From IMG/VR virus record IMGVR_UViG_3300028800_000006, positions 38,928 through 102,927 of that record: a stretch of DNA of 64,000 nucleotides; one strand, given 5' to 3'. Of the stretch, positions 2,921 to 63,134 are shown piece after piece; the first letter of the stretch is position 1, and each line of letters begins with the position of its first letter. The stretch is from a virus. Below the pieces are notes generated by a model that did no database searches, had not been told where the DNA came from, and worked only from the letters and a program-made list of their open reading frames with translations. Both the position numbers and the translations under genes were made by a program.

Positions 2921-3334
2921 ATGGTTTCAGTCACCAACACGAATCTAGGCTTCTCGATCACTTCGGCGATCAAGAGCGTCGGCAAGACCGCGATCAAGGC
3001 GCAGGGGGCTGTGTTCAAGGCGACTGGTGTGGCCTCGAAGATCCCGGGCGTGTCTCAGGGAGCGAACGCGATCGTGCCAGGCTCCGGACGGATCCTCTCG
3101 GCCGGCGGCCAGCTCGACTCGATCGTGGGCGACAAGCTCTTGAGTGTGGGGAGCGGCAGCGGGGGCACGACGACAGCGACTGCTGTTGATCCTGGAACGG
3201 GCGGCGATCCTGGTGTGCCAGCGCAGCCGGGGAAGCGCGGCGGCTCGAAGCAGCTCATCAAGGGTGTGCCGAACACGACGTTGGCCATCGCAGGCGGCGG
3301 GCTCCTGGTGCTGCTTCTCGTGCTGAAGCGGTAG
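2921..3334 (+). CDS. LG|F family C-terminally anchored membrane protein
   Basis: AGGAG RBS; NLGFSITSAIKSVGK; ends LLVLLLVLKR. Confidence 0.75.
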   Translation: MVSVTNTNLGFSITSAIKSVGKTAIKAQGAVFKATGVASKIPGVSQGANAIVPGSGRILSAGGQLDSIVGDKLLSVGSGSGGTTTATAVDPGTGGDPGVPAQPGKRGGSKQLIKGVPNTTLAIAGGGLLVLLLVLKR

Positions 3335-3373
3335 GGGTTTGCTGCCAGACGACTGGCGTTCTACACTCGTGGA

Positions 3374-3547
3374 ATGACCGGACAGCCGAAATCGAACGCA
3401 GGAACCATCGCGGCCGTGATCGGCGGCCTCGCGGCCGTAGGCGGGCTCGTCGCCGCGGGTGTGGCTTCGTCGAGGAAGCCGGCGCCGCGCCTGGGCGGAG
3501 TGCGGCGGCCGGGGCTCGTTAAGAAGCCGTGCGGGTGTGGGCGGTGA
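3374..3547 (+). CDS. Small membrane/basic protein (57 aa, not in ORF track)
   Basis: MTGQPKSNAGTIAAVIGGLAAVGGLVAAGVASSRKPAPRLGGVRRPGLVKKPCGCGR; TACACT -10 box just upstream. Confidence 0.6.
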   Translation: MTGQPKSNAGTIAAVIGGLAAVGGLVAAGVASSRKPAPRLGGVRRPGLVKKPCGCGR

Positions 3548-3747
3548 CGGCAGCGCAGCGCAAGGAGGCTGCTCGGCTTGCACACGCTGTGCGGAAGATG
3601 GCGCGTGAGGGCGATTGCGGGCACGCATCCAATCTCGTCTACATCATGAGGAAGAAAGGGCTCGTCAGCCCTCGCCTAGAGAACGCTCTCCACCGCGTTG
3701 TTGGCCTGTGCGGCGTACGCGCTCGGGGCTGGCCAACAGACTTCTAA
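3544..3747 (+). CDS. Small basic protein, GDC-motif family
   Basis: GTGA overlap; AREGDCGHAS resembles proteins at 40753 and 46850. Confidence 0.55.
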   Translation: MTAAQRKEAARLAHAVRKMAREGDCGHASNLVYIMRKKGLVSPRLENALHRVVGLCGVRARGWPTDF

Positions 3748-3753
3748 AGCTAA

Positions 3754-3927
3754 TCATCGCCGCCAGTGAACCGGCCCGCCCATCCAACTGAACAGGATCA
3801 CCAGCAGAACAATCAGCAGCACGACGTGCAGTAGGTTGTTCCCCCGCACCGCAGGCGGCCCGGCCCAGTAGCCTCCGCCCCAACCGGCAAACACCACGAG
3901 CAGGATGATGAGTAGAGGCCACGGCAT
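3754..3927 (-). CDS. Small two-TM protein (DUF3309-like)
   Basis: MPWPLLIILLVVFAGWGGGYW...LLHVVLLIVLLVILF. Confidence 0.55.
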   Translation of the reverse strand: MPWPLLIILLVVFAGWGGGYWAGPPAVRGNNLLHVVLLIVLLVILFSWMGGPVHWRR

Positions 3928-3946
3928 GGACTCCAGGCTGAGTACG

Positions 3947-4195
3947 ATGGTGCCGGTAAGCAAGTACACGTGGGTGGGGCTGACCGATTGGCCTGAAAAG
4001 CCGAACAGCACAGTGTGCTTATGTAGCAGCGCCGTTCATGGACGGGACGAACACGAGGGGATTCTGTGGATTCGTGGAGTGCACACCGAAGCCACTGAGG
4101 ACGGCCGTGCGCTACTGGCCGCATACGCGCTGTCTGATTTGGAGGCGCCGCTCCTGCCGATCAGCGATCCGCGGCTTGCTTCAGCAGCTCTTTGA
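3947..4195 (+). CDS. EGxxW-motif paralog family member
   Basis: EHEGILWIRGVHTEATEDGRALLAAYAL; start uncertain. Confidence 0.65.
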   Translation: MVPVSKYTWVGLTDWPEKPNSTVCLCSSAVHGRDEHEGILWIRGVHTEATEDGRALLAAYALSDLEAPLLPISDPRLASAAL

Positions 4196-60338: not shown

Positions 60339-60571
60339 GCCCGCCTCCGCAAGCTACGGGCCCCATTGTCGTGACGGTTGTCGTGGCTACAACCGTAGCG
60401 GCTGCATACTCTCCTCGCGGAGCCGTGCTCGCTCACCACGTCGGCATGAAATACGACCCACGCTATGAGGGCATTTCGTGGATACACGGCGCGCATACTG
60501 AAGACAGCCAAGAAGGGCAAGCGCTACTGGCTGCGTACTTCCTGAGCAACGGTGAACGGGTCACAAGGTGA
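60335..60571 (+). CDS. EGxxW-motif paralog family member
   Basis: RYEGISWIHGAHTEDSQEGQALLAAYFL. Confidence 0.75.
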   Translation: MSPPPQATGPIVVTVVVATTVAAAYSPRGAVLAHHVGMKYDPRYEGISWIHGAHTEDSQEGQALLAAYFLSNGERVTR

Positions 60572-60819
60572 ACGTCGGAGATCCTGTAACGGTCGTGCAC
60601 CACGACCACACCATCCGTCCTTCAACCGTTGCGTTCGTCGAAGCAGACCGATCCAGCTTTATGGTGGAAGACGATGCACCACTGGTCGAACTGTATGATG
60701 CCCACCGCGAAGGCATCACCTGGATTTCAGGACACCACGAAACAAACTCGCCAGAGATCCGATCTCTTGCCGCAGCGTACCTACTCGCCGAATTGCCTGC
60801 CGGTGACAGCTCGGCGTAA
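60568..60819 (+). CDS. EGxxW-motif paralog family member
   Basis: MNVGDPVTVV...HREGITWISGHHETNSPEIRSLAAAYLL. Confidence 0.75.
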   Translation: MNVGDPVTVVHHDHTIRPSTVAFVEADRSSFMVEDDAPLVELYDAHREGITWISGHHETNSPEIRSLAAAYLLAELPAGDSSA

Positions 60820-60829
60820 AACCTTCTCC

Positions 60830-61556
60830 ATGACCAAACCTGACCACTTCGGCGCCATTGTCCTCGCCATCATCAGCGCGACCATCTGCATCTTTGCGTC
60901 TGGCGCGTTGAGCTGGAAAGGCCGCGTGGCGCTCGTGCTCCTCACCCTTTTCACGATCTTCGTGTGGGTGCAGCCCGAGGCAACTGGCGCCGTCATCCTG
61001 CGCTTCCGCTTCGCCACTGAACGCTGGCTCAAATCATTGAGGTGACCCCATGCACGCTGTAGTCGCTCTGCTCGCACTCCTGGCCGCTGAACCAGTGCCG
61101 TTCTTCAAGGGCGACCGCGTTCAGCTTCCTGTCGACCCGCACCAGCACGTCGTGTACGGGCCCGAGCTGCCTGATCCAATCGCCACGGAGTGCGGCGTCC
61201 GCGACAAGGCGTGTCTGGCCGAGCACGACTTTCGTGTGGTCACACTCGCAGCTGCCCAGCACGATCCGAACTGGTGCGACCAGGCGGTGGACTCGTTCGA
61301 GTGCCGGGACATCTACGCCATGATCGTTGGCGACAGCGGCCGGATGGATCCGATGCTCACCGACCCCTGCACGTACGTCGTGCGCACCGATCACGGAGTG
61401 GCCGTGCTGTACTCGAAGCCGAAGGCCCGGTGGATGGTGTCGGCGAACTGGGGATGGCACGCACCCCAGTTCATTGGGGTGTGCAAGGACCCGGGCATGC
61501 TGCCTGCGGTGGGCGTGCAGACGTTGCCGGCGTTCCCGTGGGTCACGAAGAAGTGA
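60830..61556 (+). other. Two genes: two-TM protein (60830-61045) and secreted Cys-rich protein (61050-61556)
   Basis: Hydrophobic segments; signal peptide; GAGG RBS. Confidence 0.6.
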
Positions 61557-61799
61557 GCGCCGAGGTCAAGCTTGACCTCGGCGCTCCTGTGACGCTGCTG
61601 TACATCATCGGCGGTAATGAGCTACGGTACAAGCACGGATACGTCCTCGCACTCAACCCGGAAGGTTTCGTTGCACGCGTAACGGCGATCGACGTCACCT
61701 ACGAGAGCCGCGAGTATGGAACGTGGTGGATCCACGGCCACCACGACGCCGACGAATGAAATGGATGCGCTGCTAGCCGCGAACGCGCTGGTGCGCTAG
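61553..61799 (+). pseudogene. Frameshifted EGxxW-motif family member
   Basis: EYGTWWIHGHHDADE* (stop 61759); the +1 frame continues NEMDALLAANALVR* to 61799. Confidence 0.65.
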
Positions 61800-62209
61800 C
61801 GCCCGTACTCGGCCAGGAAGTCGTCGTTCAGTTCCTTCGCGACGGCTTTGCGATCGGCCACGGAGAACACCTGATGCCAGGTGCCGCCGCCCATGTCCTT
61901 CACGTACTTCTTCGCTCCGGACTCGGCCAGGTAGCCCCACAGCTTCTCAGCCAGGGTGCGGTCGTAGGTGCCCTTCGCGAGCCGCCTCTTGAGGTTGTTG
62001 ATGATCGACGTGGTCTGGCTGCGGTAGAGATCGCCGTCGTTGTCGATGTACAGCTTCAGCTCGGACGACTCTGCGTGCCCACGCAGCCCCCGGCGGCGCC
62101 GCGAGCCCGAGAGGGCAGGGGCGTGGGGCATCCGGCCGCCCAGCATGAGATAGGCGCCCCCCGCGAGGGCACTGGCAGCGATGGCGAGACCGAAGAGGGG
62201 AGCTTTCAT
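61796..62209 (-). CDS. N-terminal TM plus LSG-RRRR-GLRG linker plus helical phage domain
   Basis: PALSGSRRRRGLRGHA followed by ELKLYIDNDGDLY...KGTYD...KLW. Confidence 0.7.
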   Translation of the reverse strand: MKAPLFGLAIAASALAGGAYLMLGGRMPHAPALSGSRRRRGLRGHAESSELKLYIDNDGDLYRSQTTSIINNLKRRLAKGTYDRTLAEKLWGYLAESGAKKYVKDMGGGTWHQVFSVADRKAVAKELNDDFLAEYGR

Positions 62210-62213
62210 TGGT

Positions 62214-63134
62214 TCACGCTCGGGGCTTGTCGTGCCGACGAATGTACCGCGTCGCTTCGTCGAGCAGGTGGGTGAGAGACTTCGTGGTCGGAGTCGAGAT
62301 CGGAATCATCCGGCCTTCACGGCGCGCCTTGGTGATCGAGCCCCGGTTTGGGACCTTCCAGGCCACGAGATTGCCGTTGCGGTACCGCGTGACGAGAAAG
62401 CGGTGCCCGTCGCGCTCCGCCAGGCACTCGGACTGCGTCACGCCGCCTGGTGTGAAGATCGGGCACTTCGTGATCAGCCCGCGGGATGGGCGCGCCATCA
62501 GCGGCTCCTCCGCTTGTGGCGCGCCCCGGTAAGAGCAGCCCCACACGGATCGATGCCGACCTGAATCAGCAAATTCGATTCCGTGCTGTACCCGATTGCC
62601 CGCCGCGTGCTCTTGTTGACGACGGCTACGATACCTCGGCGCCATCCCCGTATCGGAACGCTGCAGTAACGCGCCGGCTTGTTGACACGCGTGACTGTAT
62701 GCGCAGGCACGAACAGCTTCGAGCCGCTCGTCACGGTCGCTTCCCACGTGCCTTTTTTCTTCATCGCCGGCACGCCCTCTGCAGATACTTGTGGAACATG
62801 CGCGCCGTCGACCCCGGTGCGTTCCGCGACTTGCGGTAGCCGTAGTGCGCCGCCTTGCTCAGCAGATCCTCGATCTTCGACGACGGCAGCGCGAAGAAGT
62901 CAGAGTCGCCACCCCGCGGGATCCCCAGCTCCTTCAGGATCACGCAGGCGTCGCTCTTGATATGAGAACGCGGAGGCACGGTCGGGCTCACCCGCAGCGG
63001 TGATACGCCCGCATGCACGGCCCGGGGCCGCGCCGGGCGCGCATGCAGCTCGACAGCGCGGTCTTGCAGTGCTTCGGCTTGGAAGCCATCCGGCGCGCCA
63101 TCGCGCCACCACGTCGCTTCGTTCGTCTTGCCAT
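62214..63134 (-). other. Four small basic genes (62214-62498, 62498-62764, 62761-62991, 62988-63134)
   Basis: Promoter TTGACA-N18-TACGCT-N7-ATG(63134); coupled ORFs; tail ALTGARHKRRSR. Confidence 0.65.

What the first reader, a model, noticed from the sequence alone, without database searches (positions are those of the whole stretch)
2921..62764. Genome-wide L-x-G / LG|F motifs suggest an adenovirus-like proteolytic maturation programme in a bacterial virus
Seen: C-terminally anchored proteins start with a short leader and then LG-F/I: NLGFSITSAIKSVGK (2921), TLGFSITSPFKSVAH (49540), PLGFSLPSSITSVAR (48642) and ALGISF (49004). Small basic proteins carry L-[SAT]-G or GLG next to poly-Arg: RRRRGLG (40753), GLAGSRKRRRR (41308), LSGARRRRRRR (39483), LSGSRRRRGLRG (61796) and LTGARHKRRSR (62498). 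LSGYLG (45858) and LSGSDYLG (4448) are similar. Known: adenovirus protease cleaves (M/I/L)xGG|x sites in Arg-rich core proteins and frees the amphipathic membrane-lytic helix of protein VI. Inference: the protease at 47068, divergently adjacent to three LG|F/I genes, processes these proteins, exposing amphipathic helices and clipping Arg-rich DNA-condensing or packaging tags from cargo.
Basis: inference. Interest (0 to 1): 0.75.

Follow-up and report, generated by a model that had tools for sequence, protein, structure and literature searches.

The report
Tagged membrane proteins beside viral protease
In a complete 103-kb genome of an uncultured tailless, membrane-containing bacterial virus, several membrane-anchored proteins encoded next to a conserved cysteine enzyme carry the same short N-terminal tag, which may be a sorting or trimming signal; the claimed genome-wide L-x-G cleavage code is no commoner than chance, and no cutting has been shown.

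Summary
All eleven peptide strings exist, but the coordinates given are ORF ends, not motif positions. L-x-G, L[SAT]G and GLG are not enriched over shuffles, and they are equally dense in replication and virion genes.

Two narrower signals are real:
- A 25-residue N-terminal module (M-hydrophobic-hydrophobic, 3-12 variable residues, [LF]GF[SN]..) sits on two otherwise unrelated families of C-tail-anchored proteins. In all eight relatives where both genes could be seen, these are encoded divergently beside a transglutaminase-fold Cys-His-Asp enzyme.
- LSG[AS] directly precedes an Arg run in a conserved 35-aa basic peptide and in a membrane-anchored protein family.

Three other Arg tails largely coincide with a Shine-Dalgarno site plus a TGATG/ATGA stop-start overlap, read in frame.

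The enzyme is not adenain-like. Its fold matches LapG, PNGase and Pei isopeptidases. Its homologue in the cultured phage SSIP-1 (gp34) is annotated as a structural protein.

Cleavage is plausible but unshown. A non-cleaved docking tag is about equally likely.

The scan has noted this theme before on other DNA (at least 17 notes).

The parts
47068..48555 (-). Transglutaminase-fold Cys-His-Asp enzyme (about 185 aa once spliced), interrupted by an intein at the catalytic Cys
   Evidence: PF01841 at 24.0 bits (cut-off 23), plus intein hits below their cut-offs. There are 273 homologues at 58% identity or more, and C107/H139/D158 are invariant. The AF2 model of the intein-less orthologue has pLDDT 90. 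Foldseek matches 3isr, TglA, PNGase, LapG, PeiW/PeiP and CPR-C4. SSIP-1 gp34 is a homologue.
47305..48234 (-). Intein (residues 108-417 of the 495-aa product)
   Evidence: The two exteins align without a gap to the intein-less orthologue L004:8198-8752(-), meeting at Cys107. Seven of the eight relatives lack the insert.
48642..49007 (+). Short (121 aa) C-tail-anchored protein with the N-terminal tag MLVQGP-LGFS..; first gene divergent from the enzyme
   Evidence: Eight orthologues begin at a GTG/ATG followed by 6-10 residues and then [LF]G[FS][SN].
49004..49531 (+). Pro/Gln-rich C-tail-anchored protein (ALGISF); its LG[FI] is not conserved
   Evidence: Orthologues start MYFGQ.., MYFGIP.., MQIGFP.., MSTFGFP...
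49540..50322 (+). 260-aa C-tail-anchored protein with the tag MIFG..(variable)..LGFSITSPFK and a conserved basic core
   Evidence: 32 metagenomic homologues. In alignment A1, G17 and S19 are invariant and L16 and F18 are kept in 90% or more. Only the first 25 residues align with the short family (hhalign probability 91%, E 1e-6).
2921..3334 (+). 137-aa C-tail-anchored paralogue of the short family (MVSVTNTN-LGFSITS)
   Evidence: Translation. 26% identity over its full length to the short-family member of genome G002. It aligns within A4.
39483..39590 (-). 35-aa Arg-rich peptide ending SLSGA-R7, just upstream of the putative capsid genes
   Evidence: Conserved in G001-G003, ending SL[SM]G[AH]-Arg run. 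Against G003 there are 14 synonymous and 6 non-synonymous codon changes, and the L, S and G codons all change synonymously. It has an AAGGAGAG Shine-Dalgarno site.
61796..62209 (-). N-terminal TM helix, then LSGS-RRRR-GLRG linker, then a widespread ~90-aa domain
   Evidence: LSG[SA]-Arg run-[LF]RG is kept in five diverged homologues. The C-terminal domain alone has 2801 relatives in many architectures.
40753..41037 (+). 94-aa protein starting MAKRRRRGLGSS
   Evidence: The G003 orthologue starts ..KRRRRGGLGSS (44% identity).
41281..41586 (+). Small ORF ending GLAGSRKRRRR; the tail overlaps the Shine-Dalgarno site and start of the next gene
   Evidence..AAG CGG AGG AGA CGA TGA TGG: GGAGGAG plus a 4-nt ATGA overlap. 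No orthologue in G001-G003.
41583..41918 (+). Small ORF ending GRARRRRRR; the tail overlaps the Shine-Dalgarno site and start of the next gene
   Evidence..CGA AGG AGA CGC TGA TGG. No orthologue.
62498..62764 (-). Small ORF ending LTGARHKRRSR; the tail overlaps the Shine-Dalgarno site and start of the next gene
   Evidence..AAG CGG AGG AGC CGC TGA TGG. No orthologue.
4448..4726 (-). Membrane protein with a second N-terminal tag, MAEIYTLSGS
   Evidence: Orthologues begin M.E[IV][YF]T[IL]SG[AS]. The same tag heads the PG-binding tail-anchored protein just upstream of the window (genome 35398-35955) and its G001 orthologue.
45858..46442 (-). C-tail-anchored protein with a weak peptidoglycan-binding domain (MRLSGYLG)
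   Evidence: PF01471 at 15 bits, below its cut-off. Orthologues in all relatives, with variable N-termini.
38001..38789 (-). Most conserved protein (262 aa); probable jelly-roll major capsid protein
   Evidence: 83-86% identical in relatives, with 178 homologues. The AF2 model is all-beta, pLDDT 72. Best VIA matches are SPV1 MCP (Z 8.0), HHIV-2, P23-77 VP17 and HCIV-1. The ESM Atlas gives a lead to PM2 P2 and PRD1 P3.
6952..7707 (+).
   Evidence: phrog_19005, function unknown, E 2e-40. No Pfam or PDB sequence match. Fold not tested.

Best explanation
The finding lumps three different things together.

(1) An N-terminal tag. It reads Met, two hydrophobic residues, 3-12 variable residues, then [LF]-G-F-[SN]-x-x-[SD]-[PA]-hydrophobic-[KR]. 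It heads two otherwise unrelated, conserved families of C-tail-anchored proteins of the viral inner membrane, plus a paralogue at 2921. These genes always lie divergently beside a small transglutaminase-fold Cys-His-Asp enzyme. I read the tag as an assembly signal that this enzyme recognises and most likely trims near the Gly-Phe. The logic would be that of the T4 capsid-targeting sequence with gp21, or of adenovirus pVI with AVP. The tag, the synteny and the fold are shown. Recognition and cutting are inferred.

(2) LSG[AS] next to an Arg run. It occurs in a 35-aa protamine-like peptide encoded beside the capsid genes, and in the linker after the membrane helix of the 61796 family. Both are selected at the protein level. 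They are probably DNA-facing basic segments, and they may or may not be further cleavage sites.

(3) No signal. This covers the generic L-x-G and GLG counts, the non-conserved ALGISF, and three Arg tails that largely coincide with a Shine-Dalgarno site and start codon read in frame.
For: - Tag statistics and conservation.
- The tag is modular: only the first 25 residues are shared between the two families.
- Divergent synteny with the enzyme in 8 of 8 relatives that show both genes.
- The enzyme is ubiquitous and highly conserved, with an invariant Cys-His-Asp triad.
- Confident model with a transglutaminase-like fold; matches include the N-terminus-cleaving protease LapG (LapG biology in PMC10990149).
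- The homologue in cultured phage SSIP-1, gp34, is annotated as a structural protein and is itself tail-anchored.
- The complete genome has no other recognisable maturation protease: no C5, C48, S77 or S78.
- The LSG codons change only synonymously between genomes, and the motif is kept in five diverged homologues.
- Shine-Dalgarno explanation of three Arg tails.
Against: - There is no proteomic or biochemical evidence of cutting anywhere in this virus group.
- The first three residues of the supposed leader are themselves conserved, and most of the conservation lies downstream of the proposed LG|F bond. That fits a non-cleaved docking or helix-capping motif equally well.
- The LGFS and LSG[AS] motifs do not share a convincing common consensus. 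[LI]SG[AS] also occurs in replication proteins and in a VWA MIDAS motif.
- The fold also matches virus-encoded cell-wall isopeptidases (PeiW/PeiP), true transglutaminases and PNGase.
- Universal co-occurrence of enzyme and tags gives no phyletic test.
Confidence: 0.4

Rival explanations
1. The N-terminal tags are not cleaved. They are docking or sorting motifs: a short strand, turn and helix cap that tethers tail-anchored inner-membrane proteins to the underside of the jelly-roll capsid or to an assembly factor. The neighbouring transglutaminase-fold enzyme does something else. It could be a virion-borne peptidoglycan isopeptidase for entry or lysis (as PeiW/PeiP are for methanogen viruses), or a true transglutaminase that cross-links the Lys-rich and Gln-rich membrane proteins.
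For: - Conservation extends about 10 residues beyond the Gly and also covers the Met-proximal residues.
- The LG[VF]S..A.K pattern matches a loop and helix start in a designed helical repeat protein.
- Foldseek hits include PeiW/PeiP, a TGase and PNGase at E-values like LapG's.
- The locus also holds a membrane-anchored SLT transglycosylase and two proteins with weak PG-binding domains, as in an entry apparatus.
- The tagged N-terminal regions are Lys-rich, and the 49004 protein and its orthologues are Gln-rich.
Against: - The enzyme has no signal peptide or anchor in this clade, as read from the sequence. The genome already encodes an SLT lysin.
- Characterised small bacterial members of the fold that act on proteins are mostly proteases (LapG, PMC10990149).
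- A purely structural motif would not need to be shared as a module by unrelated proteins, though a common docking site would explain that.
Confidence: 0.35
2. One adenovirus-like protease code, L-x-G / LG|F, operates genome-wide. It frees amphipathic lytic helices from the tail-anchored proteins and clips Arg-rich tags from many cargo and core proteins.
For: - L[SAT]G[AS] precedes 4 of the 9 basic runs.
- [LI]SG[AS] is mildly enriched: 9 observed, 4.0 expected, 13 of 500 shuffles reach it.
- The adenoviral rule of Leu at P4 and Gly at P2 is formally met by LSG[AS] (AdV sites reviewed in PMC4246237).
- The virus appears to have a jelly-roll capsid and an FtsK/HerA-like ATPase, so it is adenovirus-like in architecture.
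Against: - The generic motifs are not enriched, and their density does not differ between early and late genes.
- Three of the five C-terminal Arg-tail examples are Shine-Dalgarno overlaps in non-conserved ORFs.
- Hydrophobic moments are unremarkable.
- LGFS and LSGA are different motifs in different positions.
- There is no adenain homologue.
Confidence: 0.1
3. Nothing functional links the motifs. The LGFS similarity is only shared ancestry of paralogous small membrane proteins, and the LSG-Arg cases are coincidence in a Gly/Ala/Arg-rich proteome.
For: P0001 is a full-length paralogue of the short family. The motifs were defined post hoc from few proteins. Composition is rich in A (12%), G (10%), L (8%) and R (7%).
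Against: The two main families share only the 25-residue module, not their bodies. The Gly is invariant across about 30 sequences down to 34% identity. The LSG codons change synonymously. Synteny with the enzyme is kept in all relatives.
Confidence: 0.12

Closest known systems
[quoted passage not shown]
   Same: gp34 residues 57-165 are homologous to the enzyme core: hmmsearch E 1.8e-16 and hhalign probability 97%. The DCD, DH and LD catalytic motifs are kept. SSIP-1 is a cultured, tailless, membrane-containing phage with many C-tail-anchored small proteins. gp34 is annotated as a structural protein.
   Different: gp34 is 304 aa and is itself C-tail-anchored. The enzyme here is a free 185-aa domain carrying an intein. 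The SSIP-1 genome is 44 kb against 103 kb here. No match to the LGF-tag families or to the 262-aa capsid candidate was found in SSIP-1. Whether SSIP-1 proteins are processed could not be checked, because the paper is not held.
Adenovirus protease AVP (adenain, MEROPS C5) with precursors pVI, pVII and pX
   Same: A late-gene cysteine enzyme, and short Leu/Gly-containing motifs near the ends of membrane-active and Arg-rich DNA-binding proteins. The capsid is probably jelly-roll. pVI loses a 33-residue N-terminal peptide, and its basic C-terminal peptide pVIc is cut at IVGL|G (PMC4246237).
   Different: Different fold and clan: transglutaminase-like, not adenain or Ulp1. PF00770 and PF02902 are absent. 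There is no Gly-Gly, the motif is not enriched, the leaders are 6-15 residues long, and no cleavage has been shown.
Phage T4 capsid targeting sequence (CTS) removed by prohead protease gp21 (from my own knowledge)
   Same: A short, conserved N-terminal tag that starts at Met1 and is shared by unrelated virion proteins. In T4 it both targets the protein and is then trimmed.
   Different: T4 is a tailed HK97-fold phage and gp21 is a serine protease (S77), which is absent here. The T4 proteins are soluble core proteins, not membrane-anchored ones.
LapG / BTLCP bacterial transglutaminase-like cysteine proteinases
   Same: Same fold: Foldseek 4u65_E at E 1.5e-3, and 4fgq. Cys-His-Asp triad. LapG removes an N-terminal module from a membrane-retained protein at a small-residue motif, Ala-Ala (PMC10990149).
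   Different: Only 12-16% identity. LapG is periplasmic, Ca-dependent and regulated by c-di-GMP. The enzyme here has no signal peptide and is viral.
PeiW / PeiP pseudomurein endoisopeptidases of methanogen viruses
   Same: Virus-encoded enzymes with a transglutaminase-fold catalytic domain (Foldseek 8jx4_D, 8z4f).
   Different: They are cell-wall lysins with wall-binding repeats. The enzyme here has no wall-binding domain, and the hits are weak (E about 1e-2).

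Membership tests
Adenain-type maturation system (MEROPS C5 / clan CE) | Protease of the adenain/Ulp1 fold | tested here: not met
   PF00770 and PF02902 give no match at E<=1 in the complete genome. The candidate enzyme has a transglutaminase-like fold.
Adenain-type maturation system (MEROPS C5 / clan CE) | (M/I/L)XGG|X or (M/I/L)XGX|G sites recurring in virion precursors | tested here: inconclusive
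   [LI]SG[AS]: 9 observed, 4.0 expected (13 of 500 shuffles), including sites in replication and VWA proteins. Generic L.G and L[SAT]G are not enriched. LGFS does not fit the rule.
Adenain-type maturation system (MEROPS C5 / clan CE) | Demonstrated cleavage of precursors in virions | not testable with these tools
   The virus is uncultured. The SSIP-1 virion paper (PMC3344969) is not held.
Transglutaminase-like superfamily (Pfam PF01841) | Profile match over the curated cut-off | tested here: met
   24.0 bits against a cut-off of 23 for the intein-bearing protein. PF01841 is precomputed on most of the 120 listed homologues.
Transglutaminase-like superfamily (Pfam PF01841) | Conserved Cys-His-Asp triad | tested here: met
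   C107, H139 and D158 are invariant in 25 sequences.
Transglutaminase-like superfamily (Pfam PF01841) | Papain-like alpha+beta core fold | tested here: met
   AF2 pLDDT 90, pTM 0.88. Foldseek: 3isr at E 1e-5, 9crn at 1e-4, then PNGase, LapG and TgpA.
BTLCP / LapG-type proteinases | Periplasmic location (signal peptide) and Ca-dependent cleavage at a di-alanine site | tested here: inconclusive
   No N-terminal hydrophobic segment is visible in the sequence. Ca-site residues and substrate specificity were not tested. Fold similarity is only moderate (TM 0.45).
Type IV prepilin-like (class III) signal cleaved G|F by prepilin peptidase | Short basic leader, Gly at -1, Phe at +1, Glu at +5, then about 20 hydrophobic residues | tested here: not met
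   G-F is present, but the leaders lack Lys/Arg, there is no Glu at +5, and the following segment (SITSPFKSV..) is polar.
Tailless internal-membrane jelly-roll viruses (PRD1/PM2/Sphaerolipovirus-like) | Jelly-roll major capsid protein(s) | tested here: inconclusive
   Model of the 262-aa protein: SPV1 MCP Z 8.0 (131 aa, rmsd 3.3), HHIV-2 6.7, P23-77 VP17 6.1. Foldseek E is 3e-3 or weaker. The ESM lead to PM2 P2 and PRD1 P3 scores 0.76.
Tailless internal-membrane jelly-roll viruses (PRD1/PM2/Sphaerolipovirus-like) | FtsK/HerA-type packaging ATPase, and absence of the HK97 capsid and portal | tested here: inconclusive
   ATPase at genome 6410-8134: PF01935 at 21.2 bits (cut-off 23.2), TrwB at 19.1, phrog_2666 at E 3e-14. 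PF05065 and PF04860 are absent from the complete genome.

The most novel reading that the evidence does not exclude
Bacterial jelly-roll, membrane-containing viruses run a proteolytic maturation programme of their own, driven by a transglutaminase-fold cysteine protease and convergent with adenovirus. The enzyme trims a shared N-terminal tag from tail-anchored inner-membrane proteins. It also cuts at LSG[AS]|Arg in DNA-condensing peptides and membrane linkers, so coupling membrane, capsid and genome maturation.
Probability: 0.2. Interest if true: 0.8.

Novelty: new variant of a known kind. Interest (0 to 1): 0.5.

Why it matters
No maturation protease is described for membrane-containing phages. 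The terms protease, proteolytic and processing are absent from a 2019 review of these phages (PMC6356626), and 'protease' is absent from the 2018 survey of prokaryotic double jelly-roll viruses (PMC5894146). If the transglutaminase-fold enzyme trims tagged membrane proteins, proteolytic maturation would extend to the bacterial jelly-roll viruses, carried out by an unrelated enzyme fold. If the tag is not cleaved, it is still a compact, portable signal that sends proteins to a viral inner membrane. A cultured relative, SSIP-1, carries the enzyme homologue, so the question can be tested directly. The Shine-Dalgarno result is also a caution: in GC-rich phages with coupled genes, C-terminal Arg runs can be a reading of the next gene's ribosome-binding site.

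Tried and rejected
- Near-identity and protein searches of the phage collection with the locus, the enzyme and the 260-aa tagged protein found no relative.
- An IMG/VR scan with the intein-bearing enzyme found nothing. The scan with alignment A1 worked.
Neighbourhoods came instead from the search for related loci and from whole records G001-G003.
- Pfam and PHROGs gave nothing for the tagged proteins or the capsid candidates.
- A PDB sequence search with A1 hit only a designed helical repeat and C-type lectins by chance.
- The enzyme profile gave no significant PDB sequence hit.
- P0037, the 'papain-like' protein at 6952, had no PDB or Pfam match.
- The G[FLM]G tag reported by earlier notes in other genomes is not enriched here: 37 observed, 36.3 expected.
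- The prepilin-type G|F signal and the lipobox were considered and rejected on sequence.
- I considered whether the 35-aa ORF is only an Arg-codon attenuator leader. I rejected this because substitutions are mostly synonymous and its N-terminal half is conserved.
- The original SSIP-1 paper could not be read.
- The Atlas's own model of the 260-aa tagged protein is poor (pLDDT 0.48), so I ran no further search on it.

Full report
**Context.** The window is the last 64 kb of a 102,927-bp virus record with 64% G+C. The record has direct terminal repeats and is rated complete. I called genes with a codon-usage model trained on its long ORFs.

The genome encodes these replication proteins:
- a family A DNA polymerase
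- SNF2 and Dda-like helicases
- a primase
- a weak FtsK/HerA-like ATPase

The window encodes:
- three collagen-like fibre proteins
- a MoxR ATPase paired with a DUF2201 metallopeptidase/VWA protein
- an N-anchored SLT transglycosylase
- about eleven small C-tail-anchored proteins

No HK97 capsid, portal, adenain, Ulp1, T4-type or S78 protease profile matches anywhere in the genome.

The most conserved protein is 38001-38789(-), 262 aa, 83-86% identical in relatives. It models as an all-beta protein. Its best structural matches are jelly-roll capsid proteins of membrane-containing viruses: SPV1 at Z 8.0, then HHIV-2, P23-77 VP17 and HCIV-1. This is suggestive, not decisive.

The virus belongs to a large uncultured family with contigs of 85-133 kb. 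I took three IMG/VR records whole for comparison: G001 (89 kb), G002 (94.5 kb, complete) and G003 (104.6 kb). Seven shorter metagenome loci were also used.

**The observation.** Every quoted peptide exists. The coordinates are ORF ends rather than motif positions.

As a genome-wide pattern it fails. L.G, L[SAT]G, GLG and LGF are not enriched over within-protein shuffles; the control A.G deviates more than L.G does. L[SAT]G is as dense in replication genes (1.98 per 1000 aa) as in virion-like blocks (2.33). G[FLM]G, a tag reported by earlier notes of this scan in other genomes, is also at expectation here.

**Real signal 1: an N-terminal tag.** LG[FI]S falls within the first 25 residues of four proteins, all C-tail-anchored, against 0.08 expected.

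- The 260-aa protein (49540-50322) has 32 homologues. The Gly and Ser of LGFS are invariant, and Leu and Phe are kept in 90% or more, down to 34% identity. The motif follows M-[IL]-hydrophobic and 3-12 variable residues.
- The short protein (48642-49007) has eight orthologues with the same layout.
- A profile-profile comparison aligns only the first 25 residues of the two families (probability 91%, E 1e-6). The tag is therefore a shared module on otherwise unrelated bodies.
- P0001 (2921-3334) is a full-length paralogue of the short family.
- ALGISF at 49004 is not conserved.
- A second tag, M.E[IV][YF]T[IL]SG[AS], heads two other membrane-protein families.
- More loosely, a hydrophobic-Gly dipeptide lies in the first 20 residues of 7 of 11 tail-anchored proteins, against 40 of 142 others (Fisher p 0.02).
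- The segments after LG are only moderately amphipathic: 0.31-0.40, and 0.08 for 49004. The proteome median is 0.40.

**Real signal 2: LSG[AS] before Arg runs.** The proteome has only nine basic runs, and four are directly preceded by L[SAT]G[AS] (0.06 expected). The four are not equivalent.

- The tails at 41281-41586 and 62498-62764, and the similar tail at 41583-41918, end ..(A)AG CGG AGG AGx CGx TGA TGG or ..CGA AGG AGA CGC TGA TGG. This is a Shine-Dalgarno site and a 1- or 4-nt stop/start overlap for the next gene, read in frame as Arg codons. These ORFs have no orthologue in G001-G003.
- The 35-aa peptide at 39483-39590(-) is real. It has its own Shine-Dalgarno site and is conserved in all three relatives, ending SL[SM]G[AH] plus six or seven Arg. 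Against G003 it shows 14 synonymous and 6 non-synonymous codon changes, and the Leu, Ser and Gly codons all change synonymously.
- In the 61796-62209(-) family, the order is membrane helix, LSG[SA], Arg run, [LF]RG, acidic residues. This order is kept in five diverged homologues. The C-terminal domain alone occurs in 2801 proteins of many architectures, often preceded by other basic stretches.
- [LI]SG[AS] overall is only mildly enriched (9 observed, 4.0 expected). It also occurs in a primase, a collagen fibre and the MIDAS motif of the VWA protein.

**The enzyme.**
- 47068-48555(-) matches PF01841 just above its cut-off and carries an intein.
- The exteins join without a gap at Cys107 of intein-less orthologues. 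Seven of the eight relatives lack the insert.
- The family has 273 members at 58% identity or more, with Cys107, His139 and Asp158 invariant.
- The model (pLDDT 90) matches putative cysteine proteases (3isr), TglA, PNGase, LapG, TgpA, CPR-C4 and the viral pseudomurein isopeptidases PeiW/PeiP. The fold therefore allows a protease, an isopeptidase or a cross-linking enzyme.
- Following a lead from earlier notes of this scan, I confirmed that gp34 of the cultured phage SSIP-1 is a homologue (E 1.8e-16; hhalign 97%). The SSIP-1 record annotates gp34 as a structural protein, and its sequence ends in a C-terminal membrane anchor. This places the enzyme family in virions.
- In all eight relatives where both can be seen, the enzyme gene is divergent from the tagged genes.

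**Reading.** The safest statement is that the finding is a composite. It contains one real N-terminal tag module, tied by synteny to a virion-type cysteine enzyme. It contains one real LSG-Arg motif in two basic proteins. The rest is background, including Arg tails that largely coincide with ribosome-binding sites.

I favour, at about 0.4, that the tag is an assembly signal which the enzyme recognises and probably trims. Precedents are the T4 capsid-targeting sequence (my own knowledge), adenovirus pVI (PMC4246237) and LapG's removal of an N-terminal module (PMC10990149).

A non-cleaved docking tag, with the enzyme acting on the cell wall or cross-linking proteins, is nearly as likely (0.35). 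The reason is that conservation covers the Met-proximal residues and about ten residues after the Gly. The unified adenovirus-like programme as written gets about 0.1.

**Novelty.** Maturation proteases are not described for membrane-containing phages in the review and the survey I could search. The scan itself has flagged the same theme in at least 17 other genomes, and none of them has evidence of cutting. Those notes are AI notes, not independent evidence.

In this clade the specifics are:
- the tag is [LF]GF[SN]
- the enzyme is a free domain, here carrying an intein at its catalytic Cys
- the generic Gly-hydrophobic-Gly tag is not enriched

Noticed in passing
window 47305-48234 (-): The intein sits exactly at the catalytic Cys of the transglutaminase-fold enzyme, and its C-terminus reads ..TRQ rather than HN. 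Seven of the eight relatives lack it; L003 keeps part of an insert at the same site.
   Followed up: partly
window 41560-41590, 41895-41920, 62495-62520: A shared DNA motif, AAGCGGAGGAGNCGNTGATGG, or GAAGGAGACGCTGATGG in the third copy. It is a Shine-Dalgarno site plus a stop/start overlap, and in frame it reads as a C-terminal Arg run of the upstream gene. It is a general trap when reading Arg-rich tails in GC-rich phages.
   Followed up: yes
window 22955-25399, 25578-28634, 33420-37115 (all -): Three large collagen-repeat proteins (PF01391, up to 228 bits). They are probably surface fibres or spikes, and are unusual on a tailless virus.
   Followed up: no
window 53803-56231 (-): A conserved pair: a MoxR-type AAA ATPase and a DUF2201 putative metallopeptidase with a VWA domain. 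This is a third candidate peptidase in the late region, and it is conserved in relatives L004 and L009.
   Followed up: no
window 49540-50322 (+), residues about 85-145: The strongest conservation in the 260-aa tagged protein is not the tag. It is a basic core, ..LKDRRAKKLAWD.RKSTTPTP.E...A..W.., followed by PP.G....LAG, with no known family. It may be a DNA- or capsid-binding element.
   Followed up: no
window 61796-62209 (-), residues 45-135: A ~90-aa domain (..LYIDNDGDLYR..) with 2801 relatives at E<=1e-3 in proteins of 87 to 2574 aa, and no Pfam family.
   Followed up: partly
window 60-635 (+) and genome 35398-35955 / window 45858-46442: An N-anchored SLT lytic transglycosylase and two C-tail-anchored proteins with weak peptidoglycan-binding domains. 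This resembles the membrane-borne entry apparatus of PRD1-type phages.
   Followed up: partly
L002:2667-4814 (genome 22667-24814): The best phage-database relative of the family A DNA polymerase is Virus Rctr197k, from a methane-oxidising enrichment culture, at only 26% identity.
   Followed up: no
L030 (SSIP-1) 38488-38631: SSIP-1 gp51 is a 47-aa Arg-rich peptide (..RRRRLIGRG..). It may be a counterpart of the 35-aa basic peptide here.
   Followed up: no
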